From IMG/VR virus record IMGVR_UViG_3300045988_163643, positions 128,001 to 192,000 of that record: a stretch of 64,000 nt of DNA; one strand, written 5' to 3'. The notes under the pieces are model-generated. The model saw nothing but the letters and a program-made list of their open reading frames with translations, made no database searches and was not told the origin of the DNA. Shown in pieces: positions 3,034-24,917 of the stretch (its first letter is position 1; each line of letters opens with the position of its first letter). A program made the translations under genes and the position numbers. This DNA is from a virus.

Positions 3034-3036
3034 TAT

Positions 3037-6242: not shown

Positions 6243-6262
6243 TTAAATATATACTTGATAAA

Positions 6263-7363: not shown

Positions 7364-7972
7364 GTGAACGAGATTGAAAAAATATATAAATTATATGTTC
7401 ACATTTCCCCTAGTGGTAAAAGATATTATGGAATAACTTGTACTAAAGTTGAACAAAGATGGGGTTGTGATGGACAAAGATATAATAGACAACCATATTT
7501 TTGGAATGCTATACAAAAATATGGTTGGGATAATTTTGTTCATGAAGTTTTATTTGATGATTTAACAAAACATGAAGCTTGTATATTAGAACAATGTTAT
7601 ATTGCATTATATGATACTACTAATAGAGAAAAGGGATATAACTGTTCTATAGGAGGAATAGAACATTCACATACTAAAGAAACAAAAGAAAAAATTAAAA
7701 AATCTATAAGTGGTGAAAATAATGGTATGTATGGTAAACATCATTCAGATGGAGCTAAAGAAAAAATGAGACAAAAAAAGAAAGATATATATTTAGGAAA
7801 TAAAAATCCTAATGCTAAAAAAATAAGATGTATTGAATTAAACAAAGTATTTGATACTGTTAAAGATGCTTTAGAATTTATTAATAGAACACGTAGTTCT
7901 CTATGTGATGCGATGAAACGTAATGGTAAATGTGGTGGCTATCATTGGGAATACGTGGAGGAGGTGAATTAA
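7364..7972 (+). CDS. free-standing GIY-YIG homing endonuclease (I-TevI/Seg-like)
   Basis: N-terminus IYKLYVHISPSGKRYYGIT..R..E..N matches the GIY-YIG core. NUMOD3-like GENNGMYGKHHS and GNKNPNAKK follow. The C-terminus is a helix-turn-helix-like ..GGYHWEY. Confidence 0.8.
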   Translation: MNEIEKIYKLYVHISPSGKRYYGITCTKVEQRWGCDGQRYNRQPYFWNAIQKYGWDNFVHEVLFDDLTKHEACILEQCYIALYDTTNREKGYNCSIGGIEHSHTKETKEKIKKSISGENNGMYGKHHSDGAKEKMRQKKKDIYLGNKNPNAKKIRCIELNKVFDTVKDALEFINRTRSSLCDAMKRNGKCGGYHWEYVEEVN

Positions 7973-7973
7973 T

Positions 7974-10900
7974 TTGAGTCAATTTGATATAAGAATTGGT
8001 ACGCAACTAGATACTAGTAAAGCGTTACAAGAATTAATGGAATTTGTCAAAAAATATGACAATAAAGAAAAGATAAATATAGACATAGGTCAATCAAAAG
8101 GTGCTAATAATGTAAAGAATACAACTAAAGCTATGAAAGAAATGCAAAAAATAGCTAAGGCATTAGGAAATACAAAGATTGACGTAGGTAGTAACATAGG
8201 TAAAGCAACCAATGAAGCTACTAAATCATTAGAAAATAGCATAGACAAACAAGCAAAATCTATTGCTAAAATAACTAGTGGTGCACAAAGAGATTTAACT
8301 AAAGATGCTCAAAAGGGTATTGAAAATAGTCTTAAAGGTATTACTACAGAAATGAAAAATACCCAAAGAAATGTTGACAAGATGATTGGTACTCTTGAAC
8401 GAGCTAAGAAGGTTGAGTTAATAGACCAAAAAGGTTTAGATGAAGGATTAGCTAAATTAAAAGATATGAAAGCTAACCTTAGAATAGACAATGTTGGTGA
8501 TGTAGAGAAAAAATTAGGCGAAGTAGCAAATGACTATAAAAGATTAATGTCAGATGCAACTAAAGAAGCATTTAATAATGTTGAAGTATCAGGATTATTA
8601 GAGGATTTAAAAGTTGTTAGAGAAGCTATGTCAGCTAAAAACATGGACTTAACTGGTGTTGATACTTTAATTTCTAAAGCTAAACAACTTACTTCTTTAA
8701 GTGTTGACCAAATGTTAAAACAATACAAAGAGTTAAGACAAGTATTTAGTAAAGAATTAAAGATACCATTAGGTTTAAATGGTGTAATGAATGCTGAAAC
8801 TGCAATTAAAAATGTTTTAGATTATAAAAACAAATTAACTGCTAAAATTTCAGTTGAAACAAATTCAGAGCAAGTAGATATTTTAAGAGATAAAATAGTA
8901 AGATGTGATGAAGTTGTTAAACAACTTGAAGGAGACTTAAATTTAGTAGGTAGAAGTACAGCATTAAACTTAATGGAACAATCCAATGAAAGAGAATTAG
9001 ATACATTAAGTGCTAAGTTAAAGAGATGTAAGAATGATTATGCTAACTTAGAAAAAGAAAGACAAAGATTAAATAGAGATAGTAGATACATTGGAACAGA
9101 AGATTTAAGTAATATAGAAAAACAATCATTAGCTATAAAGAAAGCTCTTGATAGTTTAAATGTTGGAAATTTAAATACAGATAAAATAAATAAAGTTACT
9201 GGCGATATAAATAATTTAAGAAAAACAATAGAATTAACTGGTAATTCAGCTAAAAAATTAGATATAGAAGCGACAGTTAAAGTAGATATGAAAACTGCTC
9301 AAGACCAATTAAATGGTATGTATTCTGCTTTAATAAAATCTAATAAATCCACTGTAATGGTTAAAAAATATAAAGATGAATTAGAAGGATTGTTTGATTT
9401 ATCTAAGGCTAATCCAGGTATAGCATTAGACAAAATAAGTGGTTTTATAGAAAAAGTAAATAAAGAAGCAAGTAATAAAGGTTTAGGCAAAATAACTGGT
9501 GGATTAGACCAATATAAACAATATTTAAAAGATTATGAAACATTAGTTAAAAAAGCTAGTGGCACTACAGATATTGGTTTTGCAAAAGCTTACAAATCAG
9601 AAGTTACACAAATAGAAAAGGCATTAGACCAATTAGAAAGTGGATTTAACCAAACTCAAAAATCTATGGCTAAAGCCTTGAGATTAGAATCACTTAATAA
9701 GAACACTCAAGAGTTTACTAATCAAGTTGAAAAATCTATTAAGAAAACTCAAGAATATAAAAAAGAGTTACAAACTCTTAATAAAGATGTAAATTTTGAT
9801 GGTCTTACTTCTAAATTAGGTCAAAAAGTCAAAGAAGAATTTGACGGAATGATTAATAAAACTAATCAATTAGAAAAAAGACTTAATAATATGTTGTCAT
9901 CTGGTAATGTAAATACTACTGAATTATCTAAATTAAAATCAGAACTTGAAAGTACTTTTTCTGGACTTTCTAAACTTAAAGATACTAGTATAAAAATTAA
10001 AACTGATGAAACTATATCAGGACTTAATAAAATCAAAAAAGATTTAGAATCATTAGGTCAAGATACTAGTCAAATAGAAAGAGTTATTAATGCATTAAAA
10101 GAACTTAAAGCTAATTTCAATGGTGGTACAGCAGGTTATAAAGAATTAGCTAATGGAATAAAGGCTATTGGAAAAGATAATAACTTAGAAAAACTAAATA
10201 GTTCTTTAGAAAAATCAACTAAAAAATTTAATAACTTAGCTAAAGTTGTCGGAGAACTAAAAGTTAAAAATATAGGTAATATAGACCAAGGTGCTTTTCA
10301 ATCTTTAGATAGTCAAGTTGCACGAATACAATCTCATATAGAAGGTTTAAATAAAAACGACATATCTTTAATAGATGTTAAAAAAGTTGAAGCAGAAGTA
10401 AATGAATTAAGCAACTGTGTAGAAAAAATGAGTAGTGAATTGACTCAGTATAGCAGATACTTAGAAGAATATAAAAGATTATCTAGTCAAGCAGGTAAAA
10501 CAAACGATGTTAATTTAGCTACAAAATATCAACAAGAAGCAGAAGGTATAAAAGGTGTATTAACTCAATTAGAGAGTGAATTTACACAAGCTCAAAAATC
10601 TATTGCTCAAGGATTAAAAACCGATGCTTTCTCTAATGCTAATGAAAAAATGTCTTCTGAAATTAATAAAACAATTAATACAGTTGATGGTCTTAAAGAA
10701 AAACTTAATACATTAGATAAAGATGTACATTTTGAAAATATGACATCTGAATTAGGTAAAGAATTAAATAGTCAATTTAATACTTTAGCTAACAAAGGTG
10801 AAGAATTAAAAGATAAATTAAGTAAAATATTAGCATCTGATAATGTAGATATTTCTGCTTTAAGTAAAATTAAAAAAGAAATAAATGAGTTTGCAAGTGA

Positions 10901-13089
10901 AGTTAATAATTTAAAAAATTCTGCAATGGATAATGTTATTAGAGAATCTTTTGATAACATTAAAATACCTAATTTAAATAAACAACTAGAAGCAGTTAAA
11001 GATTTAATGTCACTTAAAAATATGGATACTAGTGGTATAGATGCCTTAATAGAAAGAACTAAAAAACTATCAAGCTTAAGCGTAGATAAAATAGGTCAAG
11101 AATTTAAGGAAATACAAAATGCACTTGGTAAAGAAATTAATTTACGTTTAGGTACTAGTGGTATTAAAGATATAGAATCTGCATTAAAAGTCATATTACA
11201 ATATAGAAATGAATTAAAAAATAAAATAGCAATTGAAACAGATTCATCAAAAGTAAAAGACCTTAATAGTCAATTAGAAAAAACTGAAAGCATAATAGAA
11301 AAACTTAAAGGTCAAACTAGTGGTGGACTTGGTGCAAGTTTAATTAGTGATGCCAACAATAATAACTTAAAACAATTAGAAGATACTGCTAATGGATTAA
11401 AGAAAACATTCTCTAATTTGGAAAGTGAAGTAAATAAATTAAACAACGAAGCATTGAATAAGGTTGATATAAGTCAATTAAGAGAAATGAATGAAGTTGT
11501 TAATGATGTAAAGAGAAATTTGGCATCTATCGGAGAAGGAAATGTTAATGTTGATTCAATAAATAAAACAGCACAAGACATAGAAAAATTAAAGAGATTA
11601 ATAGAAAATACTAAAAAAACAATTAGTGATATGAAATTAGAAGTTTCATTTAATATTAAATCAAATGAAGCAGAACAATATTTAGCAGGTTTTGAATCAG
11701 CTTTATTGAGGTTAGGTAAATCAACTAGTGGAATAAATGCTTTAAAGAGTGAATTTGAAAGTATAAAAAATTCAGCTAATGGAAATTTAAGTAGTGCCAT
11801 AAAAATGATTGATGACTTTATTAATAAATTGAAACAAATGGGTAGCAAACAAGGTTTAGGTAATATAAGTGGTACTATGTCTCAGTACAAACAATATACT
11901 AGAGAATTACAACAAGCCATGAGTGGGGCGTTAAAATCTAGTGGTTCTGATACGGCTAAAGGATTCGAACAACAAGCCGAACGAATAAAAAGTGCCATAA
12001 AACGTTTAGTTTCAAGTTTCAAAGAATCACAAAGAGAATCAGCTAATGCTTTTAATGGTAGTACATTTAGTAATTTCTCTTCTAAATATGAAGCTGAAAT
12101 AAACAAAGTTGAAAGAAGTATAAATAAATTTAAATCATCAATGCAAAACTTAGATAAAGCTGTAAACTTCAAAGGTTTTCAAACTGATTTAGGAAGAGGT
12201 TTATCTGAACAATTTGACCAAATAATGGCAAAAGCTGAACAATTAAGAGATAGACTAAAAAGTGCATTATCATCTGGTACTTTTGATATAAGTGAAATAA
12301 ATAAAATAAAAGATGAATTAAAACAAGTTGAGCAAGAGGCAGATTCATTAAAACAAAAATCTATAGTATTAAAATGTGCTGAAAGTATAACAGAATTAGA
12401 AAGACTTAGCAGTAAGATAAAAGATATAGGTGGAGACACATCAAAAATAGAAGAATTAAAAAATAAATTTGTTACACTTGGTACAGGTATAAGAGAAGGT
12501 ACTACTGGAATAGATGATGCAATTTCTAAAATGAAATCTTTATCTTCGGAAGCACAAAGAACTGCTAGTTCTTTTGAATCAACTGCTGGTAAAATAGGTT
12601 CTTTTGGTTCTAAAATACAAGGTTTCTTTAGTTCTATAAAGAATTCATTTAGTACTTTTACTATTGGTAATTTAATGGCTGATGGTATAAGCCGAGCTGT
12701 TTATGAAATAAAAGATACTATAACAGGTTTAGATGAAGCAATGTCTGATTTTAAAAGAGTTGCTCCTGATAACTTTAGTTTAAATACATCTAATTTACAA
12801 AGTGTTGCTAACGAAGCAAGAGAAATAGGTATTAGTGTTGGACAATCAGTAGAAGATGTTATTACTGGAATGAGTACTGCATTACAAGCAGGTGCAGGCG
12901 ATATTAAAACTGCTTCTGAAATAGCAAAAAGTTCTGCAATATTCCAAAATGTTACAGATATGTCAGCAAAAAGTGCTTCAAAAGCTGTTTCTTCAATGAT
13001 AAATCAATATTATGATATGGATTCAGCATTAAATCAAGTTGACCACGGTGTAGGTAAATCCGTAAAAGGATACAACAACTTAACAGAGG
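7974..13089 (+). CDS. tail tape measure protein, exon 1 of 5
   Basis: TTG start lies 7 nt after GGAGGTGA. The sequence is a long coiled-coil-type protein. Its last ~150 aa begin the TP901/PhageMin_Tail-type core (..VANEAREIGISVGQSVEDVITGMSTALQAG..). Confidence 0.8.
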
Positions 13090-13303
13090 TAACATACAGC
13101 CTCCTATATTAAGTAATTAGTATAGAAAATTTCTTTAATTGCTGGAAACTCCTAAAGCCTTACAAACTACAACGTAGAGTTAAAACTCAAGCGTGAATGT
13201 GGCGAAAGCAGAAAAAATTGTAAGGATTACCCAAGGTTAAATCCTAAAGGTGAATGAATGGACAATCAGCAGGTAAGATTCTAAATTAAATTATTTTAAA
13301 TAT

Positions 13304-13332
13304 TTGACTTTTAATAATAAAATGAGTATAAT
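13304..13332 (+). promoter_or_regulatory. near-consensus sigma-A promoter TTGACT-N17-TATAAT inside intron M1
   Basis: Hexamers are at 13304-13309 and 13327-13332, 23 nt upstream of the endonuclease ATG. Confidence 0.6.
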
Positions 13333-13355
13333 ATAAGTAAAGTGAGGTGATTAAA

Positions 13356-14252
13356 ATGGGAAGAAAATGGGATTATGAAAAAGTTAAAGAATATATAGAA
13401 AATTTTAAATATAAATTATTAAGTGAGGAATACAAAAATAATAAAATTAAATTATTAATTAAATGTGATAAAGGACATGTATTTAAATGTTCATTTCATA
13501 ATTTTAAAGATAGAGACTCTAGATGTCCGTATTGTAATGGTAAAAAAATAACATATGATATGGTCAAGTTTTACATTGAATCTTACAATTATAAATTATT
13601 AAATGAAGATTATGTTGATAATTCTACTAAATTGTTAATAGAATGCGATAAAGGGCATACGTTTAAAATGCGATGGAATAATTTTCAACAAGGGCAAAGA
13701 TGTCCTATATGTGATAAAAGTCATAAAAAGAATTATAAAGATGTAAAAATAGAATTAGAAAAAGAAGGTTATGAATTAATATCGAGCAAATATAAGAATA
13801 GTAAAGAAAAATTATTAATCATGTGTCCTAATGGTCATACATATGAAACAAGTTGGAATAATTTTCAAAGAGGAAGAAGATGTCCAATGTGTAATATAAC
13901 AAAAGGAGAAAAAAAGATAAAAGAAATATTAGATAATAATAAAATAGAATATATGTATAATAAAAAATACTTTAAAGATTTAAAAGGAATAAATGGAGGA
14001 TTATTAAGACCAGACTTTGTAATACCATCATTAAGAATATGGATTGAATATGATGGTATACAACATTTTGAACCTAAAGATTTTGCTGGTAAAGGTGAAG
14101 AATGGGCTAAAAAAGAATTCGTTTTAAGAAAAATGAAAGATAAAATAAAAGATGAGTATGCTAAAGAACATGATTGGAAATTAATAAGAATACCTTATTG
14201 GGAATATGATAATATAGAAAACATATTAATAAAAGAATTAAATTTAAAATAA
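13356..14252 (+). CDS. intron-encoded putative homing endonuclease (3 zinc-ribbon modules + Vsr/DUF559-like nuclease)
   Basis: ATG 13356 follows GAGGTGA. Modules have the form LLI(K/E/M)C..GH..-x10-15-RCP.C. The C-terminus has RPDFVIP..IEYDGIQH..LIRIPYWE. Confidence 0.7.
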   Translation: MGRKWDYEKVKEYIENFKYKLLSEEYKNNKIKLLIKCDKGHVFKCSFHNFKDRDSRCPYCNGKKITYDMVKFYIESYNYKLLNEDYVDNSTKLLIECDKGHTFKMRWNNFQQGQRCPICDKSHKKNYKDVKIELEKEGYELISSKYKNSKEKLLIMCPNGHTYETSWNNFQRGRRCPMCNITKGEKKIKEILDNNKIEYMYNKKYFKDLKGINGGLLRPDFVIPSLRIWIEYDGIQHFEPKDFAGKGEEWAKKEFVLRKMKDKIKDEYAKEHDWKLIRIPYWEYDNIENILIKELNLK

Positions 14253-14431
14253 TTTAACAAGAATAAACTTCAACGACTAGAACGCAAGTTCGTAGGGTGT
14301 AAGCGATTGACACTCGAAATGGGAAACAATCAAAAACGGGTTGATGATATAGTCTGCTCTCATGGGAAACCATGAGCAGTTTTCATATAAAGAAAACGGA
14401 TTAAGTGTAGCGAACTTAATTGAACAAGAGG

Positions 14432-14578
14432 CAATGGACTTGGTCAATTATGCAGGCAATAATTTTGCGATTTCATCTGATGGTGTAACAGAAGCATTAC
14501 AACGTGGTGGTTCTGTATTATCTAACTATGGAGTAGATTTAAAAGATTCTATCGCAATGATAACTGGGGCAAATGAGT
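14432..14578 (+). CDS. tape measure protein, exon 2 of 5
   Basis: Encodes (A)MDLVNYAGNNFAISSDGVTEALQRGGSVLSNYGVDLKDSIAMITGANE, the typical central block of the tape-measure core domain. Confidence 0.75.
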
Positions 14579-14914
14579 TAAATATGGCTCTTTTATATAG
14601 TAATATATAATTAAATTTTCTTGAATTGACAGGGACTCCCTTAGAGCTTTACACACTAACTTATGATAGAAATATACATAAGGGCATTGCTAACCACAAT
14701 GATATAGTAAAAGAGGTAAAGATTGGGAAATCTGCATCTAAGATTCTAAGTTGTGTAAACAATATGAATAAAGTTCAACGACTAAGTATCCTAGTAGTCT
14801 AGGTAGTGGGAAACCTCCTATTGAAGGAGGAAGATATAGTCTCAACGTTTAGTGAAAGCTAAAGAAGTTCATAAGAGAACTGCGTAAGAATAACGAACTT
14901 ATGTGAAGATATTG
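14579..14914 (+). mobile_element. group I intron M2 (ORF-less)
   Basis: P1 is GAGU|UAAAUAUGGCUC with a canonical U at -1. P7 is CAACGACUA...GAUAUAGUC. The terminal hairpin has an AUAACGA loop. The 3' end is G14914 by homology, or alternatively G14908; both preserve the frame. Confidence 0.75.
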
Positions 14915-17900
14915 CATTACAAGACCCCGCTCGTATAGGTAATGGGCTAAAATCTATAGCAATTAACCTTTCAGGTATTAAAACAAATGCCAAAACAGGT
15001 GCTCTTGAATTAAATAAAACAGCAAAAGCATTGCAAGAGACTGCTAAAATAGATATATTTACTGATAGTACTAAAACACAAGTTAAAGATATCGTTAGTA
15101 TAATGGATGAAGTAAAAGATAAATGGTCTTCTTTAACTGATGTTGAACAAAAAGGACTATCAGAAGCTATAGCTGGAAAAACCCAAGCCGGTGTATTCCA
15201 AGCATTAATGACAGGTTGGGAAAGAGTTCGTCAATATCAAAAAGAATACAATGAAGGTTGGATGATAGGTTCAGCTCAAAGAGAAAATGAAGTCTTTATG
15301 GACTCCATTGCTGGTAAATTTAATACTTTAAAAGAAAATCTTAAAGGATTATTAACTAGCAATGTTACAACAGATATGTTTAAAGGACTATTAGATGGTG
15401 CTAATAAAGTAGTAGAAGCAGTAGGAAAAATAAGTTCAAGCTTAGGTAGCATTGGTTCTGCTGGTGCATTAGTAGGTATTTCATCTTTCATAAAAACTTT
15501 ATCAAATTTAGATAAAGTTAAAACAATGGGAAGTGTATTTACTGGATTTGACAAAGTTTTAGGTGGGTTACAAGGTGCATCTGGTATTTCTGGTACAATT
15601 AGTACATTAACAGGTAGCTTTAAAGAATTAGGTGTTGGTGTAACTTTATCTAAAGTAGCATTAGGATTATTTAAAGGTGTACTAATGGGTATTGCATTTA
15701 CTGCTGTTGTTGCAGGAATAAGTGCTTGTGTAAAAGCATGGAACGATTATACTCATGCAACAGAAAACGCAGTAAAGGCTTCTAAAGAAAGACAAGATGG
15801 ATATAGAGATGAAGCACAAACTTTAAGTACTAAAAAATCAAGCCTACAAGAAATAGCTAAAGAATATGATAATTTAAATAATAAATCTGATAAAACTGCT
15901 GAAGATTTAACTAAATTAAATGAATTAAAACAACAAATAGGACAAATAGCTCCTGACCTTGTTAAAGGATATGATTCAGCAGGCAATCCAATATTAAACC
16001 TTACTACTAGTATGCAGGGTTATATAGCTGAATTAAATAAGGCAATTGCTAAACAACAAGAATTATATAACTATGAAACTAAAAAACAAGCACGAGAATA
16101 TATGAAGAAAAATGACACTAAAAATGGAGCTCAAGACCCAGAAAGAAATTCTTATGAAACTGAATTAAATAATCTTCAAAGTGCAAATGATAGAAAAACT
16201 AGAGAAGAAAAAAGATATACTGGTAGCTTAAAAAATATTATTAAAGATAGAAATAAATATAGAGAAGACCAAGAAAAAAGTATTAATGAAAGATTAGAAA
16301 GAATTAGAAATTCACAAACAGAAATTAATAATAGAGATGCTACACTTGAAGATAATTATGTTAATGAATTTAATAAGAAAACTAAATTAGCCGAAAAAGA
16401 ACAAAATAAATTTGCTACCTTTATGAAAGGGTTAAATTGGGGTACTTATGGTGAAGCAGAAGCCAATAGAATGGCTAATGGTTTACAAAAATTATCTGAA
16501 AAGACAGCATTTACAACTCAAGAGATGACAAAAGGATTATCAGGTAGCATGTCAAAAAAAGTTTCAGAAGAAATTTCTAAAGTAAATGCAGAATTCAAAA
16601 AAACAAATGCTATAAATGAATGGGGAAAAGGTTTAAGAAAAATAGCTAATGAAACAGGAAAATTTGATTTTTCAAATTGGAGTAATTACTTATCAGAAGT
16701 CCAAACTCGTTTTGAACAAGGAGTAAGTACTAATGAACAATATACACATTCATTAGGAATTATGGCTGATGCTATGGAAGATTTAACTGGTATAGATTCA
16801 GATGTATTCTTACCAGCTTTAAAAGGTGGAGCAGATTTAGAAGAAGCCTTTAAATCAGCAACTGAAGGTTTAAATGGTTTTATGAGTGCTTATGGTTCTT
16901 CTACTGCAAAATTACAACAAGGTGATTCATTTGCTAAAAAATTAGAATCTCAATTTAAAGAACTTCAAAATTTTGAAACTGAATTTGAAGGTCAATATGA
17001 GATGCAAGGTAAAGTTAGTGTAGATTGGTTAGTAGAACAAAAAGATAATGAAGATTTACCTAAACAATTAAGAACAATAATAGATGCAGTAACAAAAGAT
17101 GGAGAAGTAACAGAAGTAGAAGAAAAATTAGTATTAGCTTGTGAAACAGAAATAAAAGATAAAGGTAAATTACAACAAAGTACAATAGATGCAATAAATC
17201 AAGTAATGGACGGAACTTGGGATGTAAATAAAACTATTGAAATAGGTGGTATGGAATTTACATCATCTGAAATAAAAGAATTAATGTCATTAGCTGACCA
17301 ATTAGGTATATCTTTAGAAGGTTTAAATATTGGTGATACAGGATTAGACGGAGAAAACCAAAAAGCTCAAGCATTAAAAGATACAATAGATTCAATTACA
17401 GATAGAAATATAAAAGTAGCAATAGAAGCTGAAGGATTTGAAAATTCAGACCAAGTTAATAATATAATGTCAGTTGTTGACCAAATAGACGGAAAACAAG
17501 CTAAAGTTGATTTTATAGCAGATGCTTCTCAATATTTTAAGGAAAATGATAGTGTTGAATCAGCAATAAATGCTATGCCTGATGAGATAAAACTTAAATA
17601 TAATATTGGTGTTGAAGGTGATGAAAGACTAGAAGGAATACAAAGTAGACTTGAAAAATTACCAAAAGATATTAGAACTATGGTATATGCTCAAACATAT
17701 GGTGTTGAAAATGTTGAAATGCTAGAAAACATAGTAGATGCTTTTGGTGGAAAAACTGCAACAGCAATATTACAGTTAGATGGTATAGATGAAGCTCTTA
17801 GAAATGCTAGTACATTTGAAGAACAATTAAAAATAATTGGAGATTTTATATGTCAACCTGGAGTAGAAATAGAAGGTAAAGATGACATAATTAAAACAAT

Positions 17901-20900
17901 TGATGAAATATTAAAGAAGTTAAAAGAAACAGATGGGCAAGAAAGTAATCCTAAAATAAACGTAGAAGGAGATACTTCAGGTGCCGAGAAAGTAAAAAAA
18001 GAAGTAGATGAAGTAGGCAATAAAAAAGGGACAGCTAAAGCTGATGTAGATGGAGATACTTCAGGAGCTGAAAAAGTAGAAAAAGAAGTAGACAATGTAA
18101 ATGGAAAAAAAGGTACTGCTGAAGCAAATGTGGATGGCAATACTGAAGGTGCTGAAAAAGTAGAAAAAGAAGTAGACAATGTAAATGGGAAAAAAGGTAC
18201 TGCTAATGTAGATATTAAAGCAGATACCTCTGAAGCTGAAAAAGCTAAAAAAGAAGTAGATAATTTAGCAGTCAACAAAAATGGTACAGTTACTTTATTA
18301 GTAAATGGTCAAGAAAAAATAGCTGAAGCTAAAATTAATAAAGGTCAATTAGAAGTAAATGGTCAAGCAGTTACAACTATTTCTGTTAACGGTAAAGACC
18401 AATTACCAATAGCTATTAATGAAAAAGGTCAATTAGAAGTAAATGGTCAAGCTATAACTAATATAGATGTTAATGGTAAAGACCAATTAACTTTAGCTAG
18501 AAATGAAAAAGGTCAATTAGAAGTAAATGGTCAAGCTATAACTAATATAGATGTTAATGGTAAAGACCAATTAACTTTAGCTAGAAATGAAAAAGGTCAA
18601 TTAGAAGTAAATGGTCAAGCTATAACTAATATAGATGTTAATGGTAAAGAAAAAGTTTCTGAAGCAAAAAAAGAAGTTGATGATTTAACCAAAGATAATA
18701 AAAATGTTAGTATTAATATTGATGTTTCATTAAAAGAAACTGTTGGTGAAATATTATCAAGATTTGGATTAAATAAGAAAACAGAAAATGTTGAAATTAA
18801 TGTAACATGTAATGATAATGCAACTCCAGTATTAGAAAAAATAATGGCAAGACAAGATAAAACTATACAAATAAAAGTAGATTGTCAAGATAATGCAACT
18901 TCTAAAATAAACAATATAACTAAAATAGGAAATAAAACTGTAACAGTTACAATAAATTGTCAAGATAATGCAACTTCTAAAATAAATAGTATAGCTAGTA
19001 TGGGTAATAAATCTGTAACAGTTACTATAAATTGTCAAGACAACGCAAGTTCTACAATAAATAGAGTTACAAGTGCACCTTCTTCTAAAGCAATAAATGT
19101 TGTAGTAACTTGTACAAATGGTGGAGCAGTTCTTAATACTCTTTCTCAATTAGCTAGTAAAGTAATACCTAGTAAAAAATTTACTATAAATTGTACAGAT
19201 AGTGCTAGTAGTGTAGTAAGTAGAGTTAATGGTTTAAAAATATCTGATAAGAAATTTACTATAAATTGTACAGATAATGCAACTGCTAAAATAAATAAGG
19301 TTATTAGTAAAAAAATACCAAATAAATCATTTACTATAAGTTGTAATGATAATGCTAGTGGTAAATTAAGTAGTATTATAAGTAAAATAAGTAATATTCG
19401 TAGTAAATCAGTAACAATTACTACTAATCATGTAAGTACAGGTAAGAGTTCATCTATTGGTGAACCAACAGTTGTTGATTTACAACCTCAACCATTTAGT
19501 GCTCAAGCTTCTAATCCTCAAGTACAATCATTAGGAGAACAAGTTCAAGTATTAAATGATAGTGTGCAACAACAAACTGACAATAACAATGAAGTTAGTG
19601 TAATGGCTAAGAAGACATATAAAGCTAATATTGATACAGGTTTAACAGTAAGTGCAGTTAAATATAATATTGATTTATTAACTAACATGACTAATATGCT
19701 TAAAAAATTAGGAACTCAAGTTGATATATTAAAAGCTAAACAAGAAAGAACTTGGGGTACTGCAAGTGCTAAGTTACTTAGAAATCAAATTTCTTTACTA
19801 ACTAAACAACAAGATTTAACTAAAATAAATATTAAAAACATGGAAGGTATGGCTAAAAAACTTAAAGGTAGTTTACAAAAACAAGGATTTAAGTTTAAAG
19901 ATGACGGAACAATAAGTAATTACAATAGTAAACTTGTAAAAATGCAAAAAAATGTTGAAAGTTTAGAGAAAGCTGAAAAAGCACTAGAAGACCAAATAAG
20001 TAAAACTGAAAAACAAATTTCAAAATCTGAAAAGAAATCTTCAAGTAAGAAAAAATCAACTAGTAAGAAAAAGAAAAGTACTAGTAAGAAAAAGAGTACG
20101 AGCAAAAAGAAGAAAACTTCAAGTAAAAAGAAATCAACTAAGAAAAAGAGCACTAAGAAGAAAACTACTAAGAAGAAGAGTGCTAGTAGAAGCAATAGAA
20201 AAACTACATCAAGTAAAGCTAGTAAAAAGAAGACTACTAAGAAGAAAAAATCAACTAGTAAGAAAAAGAGTACATCAACTAAGAAGAAGAGTACTAAAAA
20301 GAGTACTAAAAAGAAAACTACTTCTAAGAAGAAATCAACCACTAAGAAGAAGAGTACATCTTCAAGCAAGAAATCAAAAGCAACTAAAGCATTAGAAAAG
20401 AAAAAGAGCGGATTAGAAAAGAAAAAGGATGCAATAAGCAAACAATTAGAAAAAGCACAAAAAGAATTATCAGAAACTCAAAGCAAATTAAATGAATATT
20501 ATAATTTACAATTTAGTGAAATTCCTGAAGCTCAACAACAATGGGAAGAATATGCTAATGCAATAGCTGAAGCTAAAGCAGAAATAATTAGATGTGAATT
20601 AGAAGCTAAAACATTCTTTAAGACAATTAAGATGGAAATGAAAGATGCTATGATTAGCAGAAATGAAACTTGGGCAGATACATTTATGTTGAAGGCTGAT
20701 TTAAGTAGTTGGTCTAAAGCAATAGGATATATTAAAGAAGCTAATAAATTATTAGCAAAAAATCAACAACATCAACAATCTAAATTAGAAACAGCTCAAG
20801 CAAGAGCGGAAGATAATAAAGCATTTTTAAAGAAACAAGGATTTAAATTTGATAAAAATGGATATGTAACAGGTGCTGAAAAAACTTTACAAAAACTTAA

Positions 20901-22402
20901 AAAGAAGAAATCATCACAAGAATACGATGCTATAAAAGAAGCATTTGATAGTTACGTTGATGATATGTATGAAAATATTCCTAAAGCTGAAAATGAATGG
21001 TGGAAATTAGAACAAGAAATAAAAGAAAATGAAAGACAAATAAAAGAAACTACTAAATCTATGAATGATTTAGTTAATTCAGCTAAAGTAGATAAATTAA
21101 CTAGACAATTTGATGTACTTTCAAATACTTTAGATATATTAGACCTTAAAATGGAACGTGCATATGGAGCTAATAAAATAGACTATATGAAACAACAACT
21201 TGATATATTATCTAATATGAAAAGTAAGAATCAAGAAATCATTAATCAAAATACTGAGTTATTAAATAATAGTAAGAAACAATTAGTTAAATATGGTGTT
21301 ACATTTGATGAAGATGGTAATATAGATAATCTATCAAAAGCATTGAAAAAATTAGATAATCTACAAGATATGGAAGATTTAAAAGATTTAGCTGATGAAT
21401 ATAATGATTACAAAGATTCAATAGATGATGCTAGTAAATCAATTGAAGAAGAAACTAATAAACAACTTGAATTAAAAGATTCAATGATGGAAATTAGAGA
21501 AGAAATGAGAAAACTTAGAGATGATGCATGGGTTAAAACTTATGAAAATGGTCTAAAAGTTATTCAAAATCGTATTGATACAATAGATTCTTTATTAGAT
21601 TTGGAAGATGAAAATCAATTTGGTTTACTAAATCAAAAAATTGAAGAATATAAGAATTTAACTAAAGCGACTGAGGATAGTTTGGCTTATCAAAAACATA
21701 GAAAAATCACTATGCAAAAAACATTGATTGATTATGGTTTCACTATTAATGATGATGGTACAATAGATGGAACTGCTAATAAATTAGAACAACTTAAAAA
21801 TACATTATCTGAAACTGAATTTGGTATAGTAAGTGATACATTAGAAGATTATTTTGATACTGCTTTAGATACAATTCCTGAATTAGAAAGAGAATTAATA
21901 AAATATCAAAAAGATTTAAAAGATATACAAAATACTAAACTAGAAAAGACTAAAACTATTGAAGAAAAAATTACTGAAATATATAATGATGAAATAGATA
22001 AAAGAACTAAAAAGATACAAGAAGAAGCAGAAACACAAACTAAAGCACTTAATAAAGCCAAAGAATCTTATCAGAGATGGAGAGACGAAGTTGACTATAA
22101 AGATGATTATAATAAACAATTAAAAACTGTTGAAGATTTACAAAAGAAAATAGAAATAGCAAAACGTGATGACAGCTTAACTGGACAAAAACGTTTAGCT
22201 GATTTGATGAAAGAATTAAAAGAAGAACAAGAAAATCTTGAAGATTTAGTTCAAGACAAAATAGATTCAGATATAAATAACATGTTTGATGACCAAATAG
22301 ATAAAATAGAAGAAAATTCTGATGAAGAAGTTAAGAATTTGGAAAAAACATGGTCAGAAAGCAAAATAGCTGAAATGGTTAAACAAGCACTTGATACTGG
22401 AG
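14915..22402 (+). CDS. tape measure protein, exon 3 of 5
   Basis: Continues the core (..LQDPARIGNGLKSIAINLSG..), then a TM-like Gly/Ala/Val segment, several repeat arrays and a long coiled coil. Confidence 0.8.
17968..18270 (+). repeat. in-frame tandem repeat, 84-nt (28-aa) unit, about 3.6 copies (GDTSGAEKVxKEVDxVxxKKGTAxAxVD)
   Basis: Units start at 17968, 18052, 18136 and 18220. Confidence 0.85.
18340..18650 (+). repeat. in-frame tandem repeat, 84-nt (28-aa) unit, about 3.7 copies (KGQLEVNGQAITNIDVNGKDQLTLARNE)
   Basis: 18421-18504 and 18505-18588 are identical. A third copy is identical until about 18648. The first copy has diverged. Confidence 0.9.
18808..19430 (+). repeat. eight ~25-aa in-frame repeats, each starting with a single Cys (C(Q/T/N)DNA(T/S)..I......K.(V/F)T(V/I)(T/N)(I)N)
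   Basis: Read directly from the translation of exon 3. Confidence 0.8.
20020..20425 (+). repeat. Lys/Ser/Thr low-complexity polybasic tract (~130 aa) inside the tape measure protein
   Basis: Translation reads KSEKKSSSKKKSTSKKKKSTSKKKSTSKKKKTSSKKKSTKKKSTKKKTT... Confidence 0.9.
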
Positions 22403-22749
22403 TAAATTAGCTCCTTTTACTAAGTAATTAGTATTAAAACTCATTGAATTGCTGGAACTTCCTAAAGCTAACTAAACTACAATATGGCTAGAAATGGCGA
22501 ATATGAATGTGGCGAAAGCAGAAAAAATTAGTTAGATATTCATATGGTTAAATCCTAAGTGAATGTAAATGGATAATCAGCAGGGAAGTCCCTTTAAAAT
22601 GGGAAACCTTCAACGACTATATATACTAGTAGTCTAGTTAGTGGTGAGCATCCTTATAGGATGATGATATAGTCTACTCTCATGTGAAAGCATGAGCAGT
22701 TCATAAGAGAACGGTATAAGGTTTAACGAACTTTATATGAATGTTAAGG
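22403..22749 (+). mobile_element. group I intron M3 (ORF-less)
   Basis: P1 is GGAG(U)AAAUUAGCUCC. Internal helix is CUAACUAA/UUAGUUAG. P7 is CAACGACUA...GAUAUAGUC. The hairpin with a UUAACGA loop is followed by GAAUGUUAAGG. Confidence 0.8.
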
Positions 22750-22840
22750 TGTTTACAGATATCGATGGGAATATAAAAACTCTTCAAACAGCATTAATGG
22801 ATTTTGCTAATGAAAGTTCTGATTATTTTGGAGTTATGGG
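22750..22840 (+). CDS. tape measure protein, exon 4 of 5 (91-nt micro-exon)
   Basis: This is the only open frame: (V)FTDIDGNIKTLQTALMDFANESSDYFGVM(G). It is flanked on both sides by introns. Confidence 0.7.
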
Positions 22841-23051
22841 TAATGTTGCCCTAGTCGTAGAGTAATTTGCGACTGAAAATAGATTTAATTGCAGGTAATT
22901 CCTAAAGCCTTACACCACAAGTATTCTGAAAAGAGATACTGAAGGTACGAAAGTAGAAAAAACGTAAGGATGAATATAAGGTTAAACCCTAAGTATTCGT
23001 AATAATGGATGTTCATGCAGGTAAGATTCTAAATTAAATTATTTTAAATAT

Positions 23052-23080
23052 TTGACTTTTAATAATAAAATGAGTATAAT
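23052..23080 (+). promoter_or_regulatory. near-consensus sigma-A promoter TTGACT-N17-TATAAT inside intron M4
   Basis: Hexamers are at 23052-23057 and 23075-23080. The segment is 83/84 identical to the M1 promoter segment. Confidence 0.6.
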
Positions 23081-23102
23081 ATAAGTAAAGCGAGGTGATT
23101 AA

Positions 23103-24431
23103 ATGGCAAAAAGAAAAAGATATACATATCAAGATGTTAAAAATATTGTTGAAAATGAAAATTATGAATTAATAAGTACAGAAAATGAAATTATTGATGA
23201 AAAGGGATTTGTTAAAACATCAACTAAAATAACAGTATGGTGTAAAAATGAAAATCATAATTATATAAAACCTCAATTAAGTAAGTTTCTCAAAGGGGGT
23301 AGATGTGGAAAGTGCAGAAATGATAATAAAAAACTTGATTATAAATATGTAAAAGAATATGTTGAATCATTTGGATATAAATTATTATCAAAAGAGTATA
23401 AAAATAATTCAACGGATTTGTTAATTGAATGTCCATTAGAACATAAGTTTAAAATGATTTTTAATAATTTTAAAAAAGGACAAAGATGTCCCAAATGTGG
23501 TGAAATAAAAAGAAGAGAAAAAAGAACGATATGGAATAAAGAAAAAATAATTAATTTTGTGAAAAATAGTAATTATGAATTTATCAAATTTGTTAAATTT
23601 GACAAATTAAACTCAAGAATATTAATAAAATGTAATAATAAAAAACATGAGTCATATGAAGTTACTTTTGCTAATTTTAAAAATGGAAAAAGATGTCCGT
23701 ACTGTTCTAATCATGTAAAATTTGATTATAAATATGTAAAAGAATATATTGAATCATTTGGATACAAGTTATTATCAAAAGAATATAAAAATACAAATGA
23801 ATATATTTTAATAAAATGCCCTGATGAAAATCATAAACCTTATTTAGTTAAATTTTCTTCTTTTAAAAATCAAGAAACTAGATGTCCTTATTGTCAAAAT
23901 AAAAAAAGAGGATTATATAGAAAGTTTGATTATAAATATGTAAAAGAATATGTTGAATCATTTGGATATAAATTGTTATCAAAAGAATATAAAAATTGTG
24001 ATGAAAAACTAAAAATAGAATGTAATAAAGGACATATTTATGAAGTATCTTTTTATTGTTTTAAAAATTTAAATACAAGATGTCCTATATGTAATGAGAG
24101 CAAGGGAGAAATAAAAATAAGAGAGATACTTAATAAATATGATATAAAATTTACTCCTCAAAAGAAATATAGTAAATTAATTGGAATTAAAGGCAGACAA
24201 TTGTCTTATGATTTTTATTTACCTTTATATAACACATTGATAGAATATCAAGGAGAATATCATGATGGTACGGGATATAATCAAACTAAAGAAAAATTTG
24301 AAACCCAAAAAGAACACGATAAAAGAAAAAGAAATTACGCTAAAGACAATAACATAAAATTATTAGAAATATGGTATTATGATTTTGATAATATAGAAAA
24401 TATATTAATAAAAGAATTGAATTTAAAATAA
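23103..24431 (+). CDS. intron-encoded putative homing endonuclease (5 zinc-ribbon modules + Vsr/DUF559-like nuclease)
   Basis: RBS GAGGTGA. Five ..C-x3-5-H-x12-17-C-x2-C modules. Three near-identical ~70-nt DNA repeats lie at 23337-23406, 23724-23792 and 23928-23996. The C-terminus has YDFYLP..IEYQGEYH..LLEIWYYDF. Confidence 0.7.
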   Translation: MAKRKRYTYQDVKNIVENENYELISTENEIIDEKGFVKTSTKITVWCKNENHNYIKPQLSKFLKGGRCGKCRNDNKKLDYKYVKEYVESFGYKLLSKEYKNNSTDLLIECPLEHKFKMIFNNFKKGQRCPKCGEIKRREKRTIWNKEKIINFVKNSNYEFIKFVKFDKLNSRILIKCNNKKHESYEVTFANFKNGKRCPYCSNHVKFDYKYVKEYIESFGYKLLSKEYKNTNEYILIKCPDENHKPYLVKFSSFKNQETRCPYCQNKKRGLYRKFDYKYVKEYVESFGYKLLSKEYKNCDEKLKIECNKGHIYEVSFYCFKNLNTRCPICNESKGEIKIREILNKYDIKFTPQKKYSKLIGIKGRQLSYDFYLPLYNTLIEYQGEYHDGTGYNQTKEKFETQKEHDKRKRNYAKDNNIKLLEIWYYDFDNIENILIKELNLK

Positions 24432-24607
24432 TTTAACAAGAATAAACTTCAACGACTAGAACGCAAGTTCGTAGGGTGTAAGCGATTGACACTCGAAAAG
24501 GTCTACCCTTAATATTAAGGTGAAGAAATAGTCTAGTCACTCTAGGAAACTAGGTGCTTAGAATTAACTAAGGTTTATAGTGTAGCGACTATAAATAAAT
24601 ATTAACG

Positions 24608-24917
24608 TGATAGCTTAAAGAAAGAATTATTAGACAATCTTAATGTAGCATTGGAAACTATGAAAGAACTTCAAAAAATGTCAGATAATTATACAGCTCC
24701 TAATATAGATTATAGTAATACGGTACTTCCAAAAGATAGTACTATTAATACTTCTCCACAAGTTTCTAGTAATGTTGAAACTAATAATATTACAATTGGA
24801 GATACAAATATTACAATTCAAGGTAGTGCAGATGATGTTACTTTAGGAAAAGTAGATGAAATGTTAAAAGATTACAAAGCAAGTATTTGTAAGGAAATTG
24901 TTAAAAATATGAAATAA
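24608..24917 (+). CDS. tape measure protein, exon 5 of 5
   Basis: Open frame to TAA 24915-24917. The five exons sum to 13,152 nt (4,383 aa with the chosen junctions). Confidence 0.7.

What the first reader, a model, noticed from the sequence alone, without database searches (positions are those of the whole stretch)
7974..24917. Tape measure gene reassembles from five exons into a ~4,380-aa protein (predicted tail longer than 0.6 micrometre)
The exons 7974-13089, 14432-14578, 14915-22402, 22750-22840 and 24608-24917 are phase-compatible and sum to 13,152 nt. The canonical tape-measure core (..SVEDVITGMSTALQAG.. / AMDLVNYAGNNFAISSDGVTEALQRGG.. / ..LQDPARIGNGLKSIAINLSG..) is split across exons 1, 2 and 3, so these are one gene rather than adjacent ORFs. 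Applying the empirical value of about 0.15 nm of tail per TMP residue (lambda and TP901-1 deletion studies) gives a tail of roughly 650 nm. That would be among the longest described. Two introns sit inside the most conserved core and two flank a 91-nt micro-exon near the C-terminus.
Basis: partly seen in the sequence, partly recalled or inferred. Interest (0 to 1): 0.8.

Follow-up and report, generated by a model that had tools for sequence, protein, structure and literature searches.

The report
Giant tape-measure gene with four introns
The tail tape-measure gene of this large, probably gut-derived phage is one gene cut into five pieces by four self-splicing group I introns and encodes a 4,383-residue protein; this is a striking but not new kind of arrangement, and it predicts an unusually long tail of roughly 0.5-0.66 micrometre.

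Summary
The five stated exons join into a 13,152-nt reading frame of 4,383 codons with no internal stop. The tape-measure core (PF10145, TIGR01760) matches as one stretch only after joining.

All four junction peptides are encoded without interruption in natural intron-less alleles from relatives 92-97% identical in DNA.

The four intervening sequences belong to one family of group I introns.
- Introns 2 and 3 pass the Rfam threshold.
- Introns 1 and 4 are paralogues that carry homing-endonuclease genes in a loop.

Three of the four introns follow a G rather than the near-universal U. This oddity was shown experimentally for group B IStrons.

The gene is an intron hot spot. Relatives add at least six more insertion sites, with up to seven introns in one gene. 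The 64-kb window holds ten group I introns.

Group I introns in tape-measure genes are already known from Bacillus cereus prophages and phiCD211, and longer tape measures exist (P23-45, 5,002 residues). This is therefore a new member of a known kind.

The tail-length figure (about 650 nm) is an untested extrapolation and probably an upper bound, because about 600-700 residues look non-helical or low-complexity.

The parts
7974..13089 (+). Tape-measure exon 1 (TTG start, residues 1-1705 plus the first base of codon 1706). Residues 16-778 and 818-1555 are a tandem duplication of a ~770-aa module. The tape-measure core begins near residue 1560.
   Evidence: ORF list. The start matches the GTG start in relatives, where it lies directly after the ribosome-binding site. 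Duplication: 27.6% identity over 776 aa, E 6e-106. Collinear with relatives at 93.6% identity over 5.1 kb.
13090..14431 (+). Group I intron 1 (1,342 nt). It begins UAAC and ends in G. P1 pairs exon GAGG with CCUC at 13100-13103. It carries a homing-endonuclease gene in the P6 loop.
   Evidence: Absent from L007, which reads AACTTAACTGAAGCGATGGAT across the site. Partial RF00028 matches on either side of the ORF: 23.8 bits (E 0.002) and 16.5 bits. R element at 14270 and S element at 14346. 59-74% identical to the other introns once the ORF is removed.
13347..14252 (+). Intron 1 ORF, 301 aa: homing-endonuclease-like, with three treble-clef zinc-ribbon repeats and a C-terminal nuclease-like domain. 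A TTGACT-17-TATAAT promoter-like site lies at 13304-13332.
   Evidence: phrog_559 (E 1e-72) and phrog_9084 'homing endonuclease' (E 4e-24). Pfam DUF4379 and CapR. Sub-threshold DUF559 and RAP hits on the C-terminus. Promoter string located.
14432..14578 (+). Exon 2 (147 nt, 49 codons): ..AMDLVNYAGNNFAISSDGVTEALQRGG.., the centre of the tape-measure core.
14579..14914 (+). Group I intron 2 (336 nt, no ORF). It has a canonical U at -1 (U14578) and a terminal G (G14914).
   Evidence: RF00028 63.2 bits, E 3e-15, against a gathering score of 50. Absent from L010, which reads GCAAATGAATCTTTACAAGAC.
14915..22402 (+). Exon 3 (7,488 nt). It holds the rest of the core, a hydrophobic Gly-rich stretch, 28-aa and 25-aa tandem repeats, a Lys/Ser/Thr-rich tract and a helical C-terminal region.
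22403..22749 (+). Group I intron 3 (347 nt, no ORF). It follows G22402. P1 pairs GGAG with CUCC, and the U.G wobble sits at intron position +1.
   Evidence: RF00028 91.0 bits, E 3e-24. Absent from L018 and L019, which read GATACTGGAGTCTTTACA and GATACCGGAGTATTTACA. L014 and L016 carry the same intron with an extra ~1,157-nt insert.
22750..22840 (+). Exon 4, a 91-nt micro-exon (..VFTDIDGNIKTLQTALMDFANESSDYFGVMG).
22841..24607 (+). Group I intron 4 (1,767 nt). It follows G22840 and ends in G24607. P1 pairs GGG with CCC. It carries a homing-endonuclease gene in the P6 loop.
   Evidence: Absent from L012-L016 and L019, which read GTTATGGGTGATTCATTAAAG. R element at 24449 and S element (GAAATAGTC) at 24525. 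52-68% identical to the Rfam-positive introns once the ORF is removed. No Rfam hit on the intact sequence.
23103..24431 (+). Intron 4 ORF, 442 aa: a paralogue of the intron 1 ORF with five zinc-ribbon repeats. The same promoter-like site lies at 23052-23080.
   Evidence: phrog_559 (E 2e-89), phrog_9084 and phrog_7140 'intron encoded nuclease'. Pfam CapR and DUF4379. Promoter located.
24608..24917 (+). Exon 5 (310 nt including the stop): the C-terminal 102 residues plus two bases of a split codon.
   Evidence: Contiguous with exons 3 and 4 in the C. difficile phage homologues.
24918..24960 (+). Terminator-like hairpin (GAAGGAAG...CTTCCTTC followed by a T run) just after the tape-measure stop codon.
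   Evidence: Sequence. Weak match to a hairpin-type sRNA model.
7364..7972 (+). Free-standing NUMOD3-type homing-endonuclease gene, inserted between the ribosome-binding site and the start of the tape-measure gene. It is not part of the gene.
   Evidence: Pfam NUMOD3 (E 2e-10). phrog_314 'homing endonuclease'. The segment 7367-7970 is absent from all five IMG/VR relatives.
24994..25776 (+). Distal tail protein (Dit)-like gene immediately downstream: the expected neighbour of a siphophage tape-measure gene.
   Evidence: Pfam DUF6558, DUF6558_C and SPP1_Dit.

Best explanation
Bases 7974-24917 are a single tail tape-measure gene of a large siphophage (relatives are 147-204 kb contigs, one from a human gut metagenome). 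It is interrupted by four self-splicing group I introns of one paralogous, phage-type family.

**Splicing.** The primary transcript folds at each intron. The last 3-4 exon bases pair with an internal guide sequence just inside the intron to form P1. An external guanosine attacks the 5' splice site. The terminal G of the intron then occupies the same site, and the exons are ligated. The spliced message encodes a 4,383-residue protein.

**Mobility.** Introns 1 and 4 carry a zinc-ribbon-plus-nuclease homing-endonuclease gene in the P6 loop, with its own promoter-like site. This would make them mobile into intron-less alleles.

**Function of the protein.** It acts as the ruler around which the tail tube polymerises, so the tail should be very long, about 0.5-0.66 micrometre.

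**Shown here:** the reading frame, the core homology, the group I signatures, the exact junctions (from natural intron-less alleles) and the presence/absence polymorphism of the introns.

**Inferred:** actual self-splicing, endonuclease activity and tail length.
For: - **Frame:** the spliced frame is open for 4,383 codons.
- **Core homology:** PF10145 and TIGR01760 match as single full-length stretches only after splicing.
- **Distant homologues:** the phiCD211-group C. difficile phages AR1086-1 and ES-S-0173-01 align across junctions 1 and 2 within single alignments, gap-free at the junctions. All six loci are contiguous across junctions 3 and 4; the alignments printed for pCD1602_4 and ES-S-0173-01 are gap-free there.
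- **Close relatives:** they supply intron-less alleles for every junction.
- **Rfam RF00028:** intron 3 scores 91 bits and intron 2 scores 63 bits. Intron 1 gives two partial hits flanking its ORF.
- **One family:** nine window introns align as one family with conserved P3/P4, P6, P7 (R and S elements) and P9 blocks.
- **3' ends:** all four introns end in G.
- **Endonuclease ORFs:** they match PHROG homing-endonuclease families at E 1e-72 to 2e-89.
- **Splicing after G has precedent:** it was verified by RT-PCR for the group B IStron BcISt1, where the following U is the first intron base (PMC4227781).
- **Gene context:** a Dit-like gene lies downstream and a terminator-like hairpin follows the stop codon.
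Against: - There is no RNA or protein evidence here.
- Intron 4 gives no Rfam hit and intron 1 gives only sub-threshold partial hits. This is expected with ~1-1.3 kb ORF inserts, but it means their membership rests on alignment to the paralogues.
- Three of the four 5' splice sites lack the canonical U at -1.
- The structure predictions used for the tail-length caveat are low confidence overall (mean pLDDT about 50).
Confidence: 0.9

Rival explanations
1. The protein is made as described, but much of it does not act as a ruler. The duplicated 1,555-residue N-terminal region, or the beta-repeat and Lys/Ser/Thr-rich segments, might be an ejected cargo or effector domain. The tail would then be much shorter than 0.6 micrometre, for example 0.3-0.45.
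For: - The N-terminal part of the 5,002-residue tape measure of P23-45 is a virion RNA polymerase (PMC10770324 abstract).
- The phiCD211 homologue has only about 330 residues before the core and is about 2,700 aa in all.
- Residues ~3020-3250 are predicted as a beta-strand array with pLDDT 65-89.
- The tract at ~3460-3585 is low-complexity.
Against: - No enzymatic Pfam domain is found anywhere in exon 1 or exon 3.
- The N-terminal module is predicted about 85% helical, like ruler segments, though at low confidence.
- Even P23-45 and P74-26, with the polymerase domain, have tails of 0.8-1 micrometre.
Confidence: 0.25
2. The gene is decaying. One or more introns no longer splice, or splice at the canonical U and so shift the frame, and the region belongs to a defective element.
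For: If the U.G wobble defined cleavage as in textbook group I introns, introns 1, 3 and 4 would each add one base and truncate the protein (sequence).
Against: - All five exons are intact and in phase.
- Several contigs 92-97% identical in DNA, including 147-204 kb contigs, keep the exons aligned collinearly with no length-changing gaps in the long exon alignments, while differing in intron content.
- At least six of the ten window introns share the same G|U configuration. These include introns in a major-tail-like gene and an 872-aa gene, both of which also restore open frames.
- For the paralogous intron in L012, the alternative junction that keeps the U in the exon creates an in-frame TAA.
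- BcISt1 shows that such sites splice correctly.
Confidence: 0.04
3. The five blocks are translated as separate polypeptides with no RNA splicing, or are joined at the protein level.
For: Gene callers split homologous genes into fragments, so databases hold only 218-653-aa pieces. The phiCD211 record lists two separate coding sequences.
Against: - Exons 2 and 4 (49 and 30 codons) have no start context.
- The conserved domain is cut in mid-motif.
- The intervening DNA has stops in the exon frame, so inteins are excluded.
- The intervening DNA has group I ribozyme signatures.
- Intron-less alleles encode a continuous protein.
Confidence: 0.02
4. In addition to full splicing, the paralogous introns allow exon skipping. 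Joining the 5' site of intron 1 to the 3' site of intron 2 drops the 147-nt exon 2 in frame, giving minor isoforms.
For: Exon 2 is a multiple of three (147 nt), so skipping it keeps the frame. The introns are paralogous. From my own knowledge, exon skipping by group I introns was described for the three-intron gene orf142 of phage Twort (Landthaler and Shub 1999).
Against: The guide sequences differ between introns 1 and 2 (CCUC versus GCUC). Exon 2 encodes the most conserved motif of the core, so a skipped product is unlikely to work. Skipping exon 4 (91 nt) would shift the frame.
Confidence: 0.08

Closest known systems
Group I introns in tape-measure genes of Bacillus cereus-group prophages (TMP-IVS1, IVS2, IVS3; Tourasse and Kolsto 2008, PMC2504315)
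   Same: Phage-type (IA1/IA2) group I introns sit inside the tape-measure gene. Several insertion sites occur per gene. Related introns adapt to different sites through P1. Some carry endonuclease genes. Presence and absence vary among related prophages.
   Different: That study found three sites and at most two introns per gene, in proteins of about 1,200 aa. Here there are four introns in one gene, up to seven in a close relative, at least ten sites across the clade, and a 4,383-aa protein. Most 5' exons here end in G.
Tape-measure gene of Clostridioides phage phiCD211 / phiCDIF1296T and relatives (AR1086-1, ES-S-0173-01, ES-S-0107-01, pCD1602_4, LIBA2945)
   Same: These are the nearest characterised homologues: 43-46% identity in the core and 30-37% at the C-terminus. 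They are large siphophages whose cores are also split by introns. The phiCD211 record annotates an Intron_gpI between two tape-measure coding sequences.
   Different: Their introns sit at other positions (about core residues 151-154, 162, 201-211 and 280). None is at the four sites used here. Their protein is about 2,700 aa and lacks the duplicated ~1,200-aa N-terminal extension.
Group B IStrons (BcISt1 and relatives; Tourasse et al. 2014, PMC4227781)
   Same: An IA2-type ribozyme is inserted after GG-ending sites (AGGG, TGGG, GAGG). The last exon base is G, the first intron base is U, and the U.G pair is shifted by one position and abuts a loop. RT-PCR showed that splicing occurs after the G. 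Introns 1, 3 and 4 follow GAGG, GGAG and TGGG.
   Different: IStrons carry IS607/IS605-type transposase genes at their 3' end and spread as transposons into unrelated genes. The elements here carry homing-endonuclease genes in the P6 loop or no ORF, and sit in conserved phage structural genes like classical homing introns.
Multi-intron phage genes, e.g. Staphylococcus phage Twort orf142 with three group I introns (Landthaler and Shub 1999; from my own knowledge)
   Same: One phage gene is interrupted by several related group I introns separated by small exons. The intron 3 family shows about 70% identity to introns of staphylococcal Twort- and K-like phages, Bacillus phages and Clostridium phage c-st.
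   Different: Here there are four introns (up to seven in relatives), a different host gene, and mostly non-U 5' splice sites.
Giant tape measures of Thermus phages P23-45 and P74-26
   Same: These are multi-thousand-residue tape-measure proteins associated with extremely long siphophage tails.
   Different: They are 5,002 residues long with tails of about 0.8-1 micrometre, so they are longer than predicted here. Their N-terminus is an RNA polymerase. No intron is mentioned in the abstracts seen.

Membership tests
Group I intron (Rfam RF00028) | Covariance-model score at or above the gathering score (50 bits) | tested here: met
   Intron 3: 91.0 bits. Intron 2: 63.2 bits. This row applies to introns 2 and 3 only.
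Group I intron (Rfam RF00028) | Covariance-model score for the ORF-containing introns 1 and 4 | tested here: inconclusive
   Intron 1 gives two partial hits of 23.8 and 16.5 bits flanking the 0.9-kb ORF. Intron 4 gives no hit. After the ORFs are removed, both align with the Rfam-positive paralogues at 52-74% identity, with all core blocks conserved. The Rfam filters also missed a true orthologue of intron 2 in a 2.4-kb scan, so negatives carry little weight.
Group I intron | Conserved catalytic core elements R (..UCAACGACUA) and S (GAUAUAGUC) that form P7 | tested here: met
   Both elements are present in all four gaps in the right order and spacing. R lies at 14270, 14775, 22610 and 24449. 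S lies at 14346, 14833, 22666 and 24525. Chance expectation is 0.7 and 1.2 per window.
Group I intron | P1 helix between the end of the 5' exon and an internal guide sequence near the intron start | tested here: met
   By inspection: intron 1 GAGG(U)/(G)CCUC; intron 2 GAGU/GCUC; intron 3 GGAG(U)/(G)CUCC; intron 4 GGG(U)/(G)CCC.
Group I intron | The last base of the 5' exon is U, in a U.G wobble | tested here: not met
   Met only by intron 2 (U14578). For introns 1, 3 and 4 the last exon base is G and the U.G pair is at intron position +1. The support differs by intron.
- Intron 1: the intron-less allele encodes Ala (GCG), which matches the G-ending junction (GCA). A U-ending junction would give Val.
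- Introns 3 and 4: the two placements give the same spliced sequence, so the assignment rests on requiring a terminal G.
- The paralogous intron in L012 is decisive, because the alternative placement creates an in-frame TAA.

The same exception was verified experimentally in group B IStrons.
Group I intron | The terminal intron base is G | tested here: met
   G14431, G14914, G22749 and G24607, with junctions fixed by intron-less alleles.
Group I intron | Self-splicing with guanosine in vitro, or ligated exons in vivo | not testable with these tools
   Needs RT-PCR or in vitro transcription.
Phage tail tape-measure protein (PF10145 / TIGR01760) | Profile match above the curated cut-off | tested here: met
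   PF10145: 75.1 bits against a cut-off of 33.2. TIGR01760: 68.2 bits against 28.8. Each is a single stretch on the spliced sequence.
Phage tail tape-measure protein | Position in the tail module, upstream of the distal tail protein | tested here: met
   A Dit-like ORF at 24994-25776 follows directly. A major-tail-like gene lies at 3908-6243. The two ORFs just upstream (6346-6900 and 6904-7329) have no assignable function, so the chaperone pair was not identified.
Phage tail tape-measure protein | Protein length sets tail length | not testable with these tools
   Needs EM and deletion mutants.
Intron-encoded homing endonuclease | Similarity to known homing-endonuclease families and location in a peripheral intron loop | tested here: met
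   phrog_559, phrog_9084 and phrog_7140 match at E 1e-72 to 1e-9. The ORFs replace the P6 loop in the alignment.
Intron-encoded homing endonuclease | Recognisable catalytic nuclease motif or fold | tested here: inconclusive
   No HNH, GIY-YIG or LAGLIDADG Pfam hit. Only sub-threshold DUF559, RAP and PvuRts1I-N hits (E 0.004-0.08) on the C-terminal ~110 aa. No match among PDB sequences.
IStron | IS200/IS605 or IS607 transposase ORFs fused to the 3' part of the intron | tested here: not met
   The intron ORFs match homing-endonuclease PHROGs and zinc-ribbon Pfam families, with no transposase family above its curated cut-off (a sub-threshold IS1595 zinc-ribbon hit only). They sit in the P6 loop, not at the 3' end.

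The most novel reading that the evidence does not exclude
This clade of large phages (one relative's contig is from a human gut metagenome) hosts an actively radiating population of group I introns. Most of them splice after G, and sometimes apparently C, instead of U.

That relaxed 5' splice-site rule would let the introns colonise many new sites. Supporting counts are: at least ten sites in the tape-measure gene; up to seven introns in one gene, including a 13-nt micro-exon; and ten introns in this 64-kb window.

If so, the 'group B IStron' ribozyme type is not an IStron peculiarity. It would be a wider lineage of phage homing introns from which IStrons may have been recruited.
Probability: 0.45. 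Interest if true: 0.65.

Novelty: new member of a known kind. Interest (0 to 1): 0.5.

Why it matters
**Annotation.** Gene callers cut this family into fragments. The protein database holds only 218-653-aa pieces of the core. Tape-measure length, and therefore predicted tail length and morphotype, is systematically underestimated for these phages.

**Biology.** A 4,383-residue ruler predicts one of the longest tails outside the Thermus phages, in a phage clade one of whose contigs comes from the human gut.

**Intron biology.** The locus gives natural matched pairs of intron-plus and intron-minus alleles for many sites. It also gives a set of conventional homing-type introns that appear to splice after G. 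Such splicing had been shown only for group B IStrons. This makes the rule for 5' splice-site choice directly testable.

Tried and rejected
**1. Canonical splice sites for introns 1, 3 and 4 (exon ending at the U of the U.G pair).** With the terminal-G 3' site this adds one base and truncates the protein. Moving the 3' site one base further makes the introns end in C, U and U. It would give Val rather than the Ala of the intron-less allele at junction 1. In the paralogous L012 intron it creates an in-frame TAA. Rejected in favour of G at -1, which has experimental precedent.

**2. Longer exon 2 or exon 4 using upstream G residues.** Rejected.

**3. Whole-window and 12-kb Rfam scans.** They found no intron in the gene. 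These were filter false negatives, since short scans found introns 2 and 3. A 2.4-kb scan of L007 likewise missed the intron 2 orthologue.

**4. Scan of 185,579 reference genomes with the core peptide.** No relative found, so no host assignment.

**5. Near-identity DNA search of the phage collection.** Only trivial hits; the phage is not in GenBank phages.

**6. PDB sequence search for the intron ORF.** Nothing usable.

**7. Protein database search with the core.** Only fragments, so it could not show an uninterrupted 4,000-aa homologue.

**8. The paper describing phiCD211 (PMC5772226) is not held.** No measured tail length for the nearest characterised relative could be cited.

**9. Search for an intron-3-less allele in viral contigs.** Nothing. 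The same pattern in metagenome contigs succeeded.

**10. Inteins and programmed frameshifting.** Considered and rejected, because the gaps contain stops in the exon frame and are RNA-structured.

Full report
**1. Observation**

The ORF map shows two very long + strand ORFs, 7974-13112 and 15031-22410. That is 4,383 codons plus the stop, with no internal stop.

The joined core matches Pfam PF10145 as one stretch covering profile positions 2-201 of 201 (E 9e-21). It matches TIGR01760 over positions 18-332 of 349 (E 6e-19). Exon 1 alone and exon 3 alone match neither model. The PF10145 match covers residues 1613-1842.

**2. Relatives and intron-less alleles**

The nearest characterised phages are the 113-134 kb phiCD211 / phiCDIF1296T group of Clostridioides difficile siphophages. 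They share 43-46% identity in the core and 30-37% at the C-terminus.

- AR1086-1 and ES-S-0173-01 align across junctions 1 and 2 within single alignments, with no gap at the junctions.
- All six loci are contiguous across junctions 3 and 4; the alignments printed for pCD1602_4 and ES-S-0173-01 are gap-free there.
- These phages have their own interruptions at other core positions.
- The phiCD211 record annotates an Intron_gpI between its two tape-measure coding sequences.

IMG/VR holds much closer relatives: contigs of 147-204 kb that are 92-96% identical in DNA. A degenerate junction pattern found two more in metagenomes. One of them is a 197.6-kb human gut contig. These relatives differ from the window in intron content, so they give intron-less alleles for every junction.

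| Junction | Locus | DNA across the site | Peptide |
|---|---|---|---|
| 1 | L007 | AACTTAACTGAAGCGATGGAT | NLTEAMD |
| 2 | L010 | GCAAATGAATCTTTACAAGAC | ANESLQD |
| 3 | L018, L019 | GATACTGGAGTCTTTACA / GATACCGGAGTATTTACA | DTGVFT |
| 4 | L012-L016, L019 | GTTATGGGTGATTCATTAAAG | VMGDSLK |

**3. What the intervening sequences are**

Whole-window and 12-kb Rfam scans found group I introns only at 47.9-49.1 kb. That was a filter artefact.

- Scanned alone, intron 3 scores 91.0 bits and intron 2 scores 63.2 bits for RF00028, against a gathering score of 50.
- Intron 1 gives two partial hits on either side of its ORF.
- Intron 4 gives none.

All four gaps contain the P7-forming R and S elements in order. 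With the ORFs removed, introns 1 and 4 align with seven other window introns as one family, at 52-78% pairwise identity across the family. The P3/P4, P6, P7 and P9 blocks are conserved. The family resembles introns of Clostridium phage c-st, Bacillus phages and staphylococcal Twort- and K-like phages at about 70% identity.

The ORFs in introns 1 and 4 are 301 and 442 aa.

- They are paralogues with repeated treble-clef zinc ribbons (DUF4379, CapR).
- They match PHROG families annotated as HNH, homing or intron-encoded endonucleases, at E 1e-72 to 2e-89.
- Their C-terminal domain gives only sub-threshold hits to DUF559, RAP and PvuRts1I-type nuclease folds.
- Each ORF replaces the P6 loop and is preceded by an identical TTGACT-17-TATAAT site.

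**4. The splice-site oddity**

In introns 1, 3 and 4 the U that forms the U.G wobble with the guide sequence is the first intron base, not the last exon base. The exons end in G, which pairs with C.

Textbook placement (cleavage after the U, 3' site after the terminal G) would add one base and truncate the protein. Shifting both sites by one base gives introns ending in C, U and U.

- **Intron 1:** the shifted placement would encode Val, where the intron-less allele encodes Ala.
- **Introns 3 and 4:** the two placements give the same spliced sequence. The assignment there rests on requiring a terminal G.
- **A paralogue of intron 4 in L012 (window site ~22185):** the shifted placement creates an in-frame TAA, so it is excluded.

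Exactly this configuration was reported for group B IStrons. They insert after AGGG, TGGG or GAGG, the U is the first intron base, and the U.G pair is shifted by one and abuts a loop. It was verified by RT-PCR for BcISt1. The authors note that the last exon base is otherwise virtually always U among thousands of group I introns (PMC4227781).

The elements here are not IStrons. They have no transposase, and their endonuclease ORFs sit in the P6 loop. They extend that exception to conventional phage introns. Across the window, the last exon base is G in introns 1, 3 and 4, B, D, E and F. Intron C can be read with either G or U. It is U in introns 2 and A.

**5. Intron load**

The window has ten group I cores on the + strand:

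- two in a major-tail-like gene (3908-6243), which splices to 183 aa;
- four in the tape-measure gene;
- three in an 872-aa metallophosphatase-like gene (46564-50185);
- one at about 54587-55018.

Close relatives carry further insertions in the tape-measure gene, at window sites ~14445, ~14457, ~14950, ~15175, ~22062 and ~22185. The first two flank a 13-nt micro-exon, AAATTACGCTGGT.

- The insertion at ~14457 scores 70.7 bits for RF00028.
- Those at ~22062 and ~22185 carry the family's R and S elements.
- Those at ~14445, ~14950 and ~15175 resemble the phiCD211 intron that GenBank annotates as group I. I did not confirm them with a model.

One relative (contig _160472) has seven insertions in this gene. 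Group I introns in tape-measure genes were already described for Bacillus cereus-group prophages, with three sites (PMC2504315).

**6. The protein and the tail**

- **Residues 16-778 and 818-1555** are an old tandem duplication, 27.6% identical (E 6e-106). It is absent from the ~2,700-aa phiCD211 homologue.
- **Pfam** finds no enzymatic domain anywhere in exons 1 or 3.
- **The first 780 residues** are predicted about 85% helical by a single-sequence AlphaFold model, but at pLDDT 50.
- **Residues ~2750-3330** consist of 28-aa and 25-aa tandem repeats. The 25-aa repeats (~3020-3250) are predicted as a beta-strand array at pLDDT 65-89.
- **Residues ~3460-3585** are a Lys/Ser/Thr-rich tract.

At 0.15 nm per residue the whole protein gives about 657 nm. 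Discounting the ~700 non-helical or low-complexity residues gives about 550 nm.

I therefore give 0.5-0.66 micrometre, an inference that only microscopy can test. The known maximum is higher: P23-45 has 5,002 residues and P74-26 has a tail of nearly 1 micrometre. The N-terminus of that tape measure is an RNA polymerase, a warning that not all residues need measure.

**7. Context**

The tape-measure start (TTG 7974) corresponds to the GTG start in relatives. In the window, a 609-nt NUMOD3 homing-endonuclease gene (7364-7972) has been inserted between the ribosome-binding site and the start. It is absent from all five IMG/VR relatives.

A Dit-like gene follows at 24994. A terminator-like hairpin follows the stop codon.

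**8. Verdict**

The observation and the gene model are confirmed. The mechanism is group I self-splicing, with two endonuclease-carrying mobile introns. The tail length is a reasonable but untested upper-range prediction.

The kind of thing is known. The degree is unusual: four to seven introns per gene, ten per 64 kb, and splicing after G.

Noticed in passing
window 3908-6243 (introns at 4053-5418 and 5567-5983): A major-tail-like gene is split by two more group I introns of the same family. The first carries a 313-aa paralogue of the tape-measure intron endonucleases (ORF 4308-5249). With junctions read after G, the three exons give an open 183-aa frame.
   Followed up: partly
window 46564-50185 (introns 47947-48270, 48395-48759, 48857-49170): An 872-aa gene with a metallophosphatase-like GHNH motif is interrupted by three Rfam-positive group I introns. 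The middle one follows ACTGGAG, the same target as tape-measure intron 3. The spliced frame is open.
   Followed up: partly
window ~54587-55018: A tenth group I core lies between ORF 54122-54592 and ORF 55154-58282. Frame logic gives the junction EWR|NQADG, with G at -1 and A, not U, as the first intron base, so there is no U.G pair at all. No intron-less allele was examined.
   Followed up: no
window 7364-7972: A free-standing NUMOD3 homing-endonuclease gene is inserted exactly between the ribosome-binding site and the start codon of the tape-measure gene, and brings its own new ribosome-binding site for that gene. It is absent from all five IMG/VR relatives.
   Followed up: yes
L010 10436-11904; also L008 and L009: Relatives have two introns of different types only 13 nt apart in the core. 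They flank the micro-exon AAATTACGCTGGT, which supplies (V)NYAG. Contig _160472 (L009 + L015) carries seven insertions in its tape-measure gene.
   Followed up: partly
L014 2766-4155 (window site ~22062): In this intron, comparison with the window implies that the last exon base is C (AAGGC|UAAAUUUAGCC), paired C-G with no U.G wobble. This is the rare C exception.
   Followed up: no
window 13304-13332 and 23052-23080: Identical TTGACT-17 nt-TATAAT promoter-like sites, plus GAGGTGA ribosome-binding sites, precede both intron-borne endonuclease ORFs. The ORF flanks are nearly identical in introns 1 and 4, as if the endonuclease cassette moved between introns.
   Followed up: partly
tape-measure residues 16-778 and 818-1555 (window ~8019-12638): An ancient tandem duplication of a ~770-aa helical module accounts for most of the extra length relative to the phiCD211-type protein.
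   Followed up: yes
tape-measure residues ~3020-3250 (window ~18700-19400) and ~3460-3585 (window ~20030-20400): About nine 25-aa 'INCxDNA(S/T)xKIN' repeats are predicted as a stacked beta array. Further downstream is a ~125-aa Lys/Ser/Thr-rich tract. Both are unusual contents for a tape measure.
   Followed up: partly
exon sequence flanking window 13089/14432, compared with L007: Nine differences, all synonymous, cluster in about 54 nt around the intron 1 site (about 17%, against about 6% overall). This fits co-conversion, or divergence of the endonuclease target and P1.
   Followed up: no
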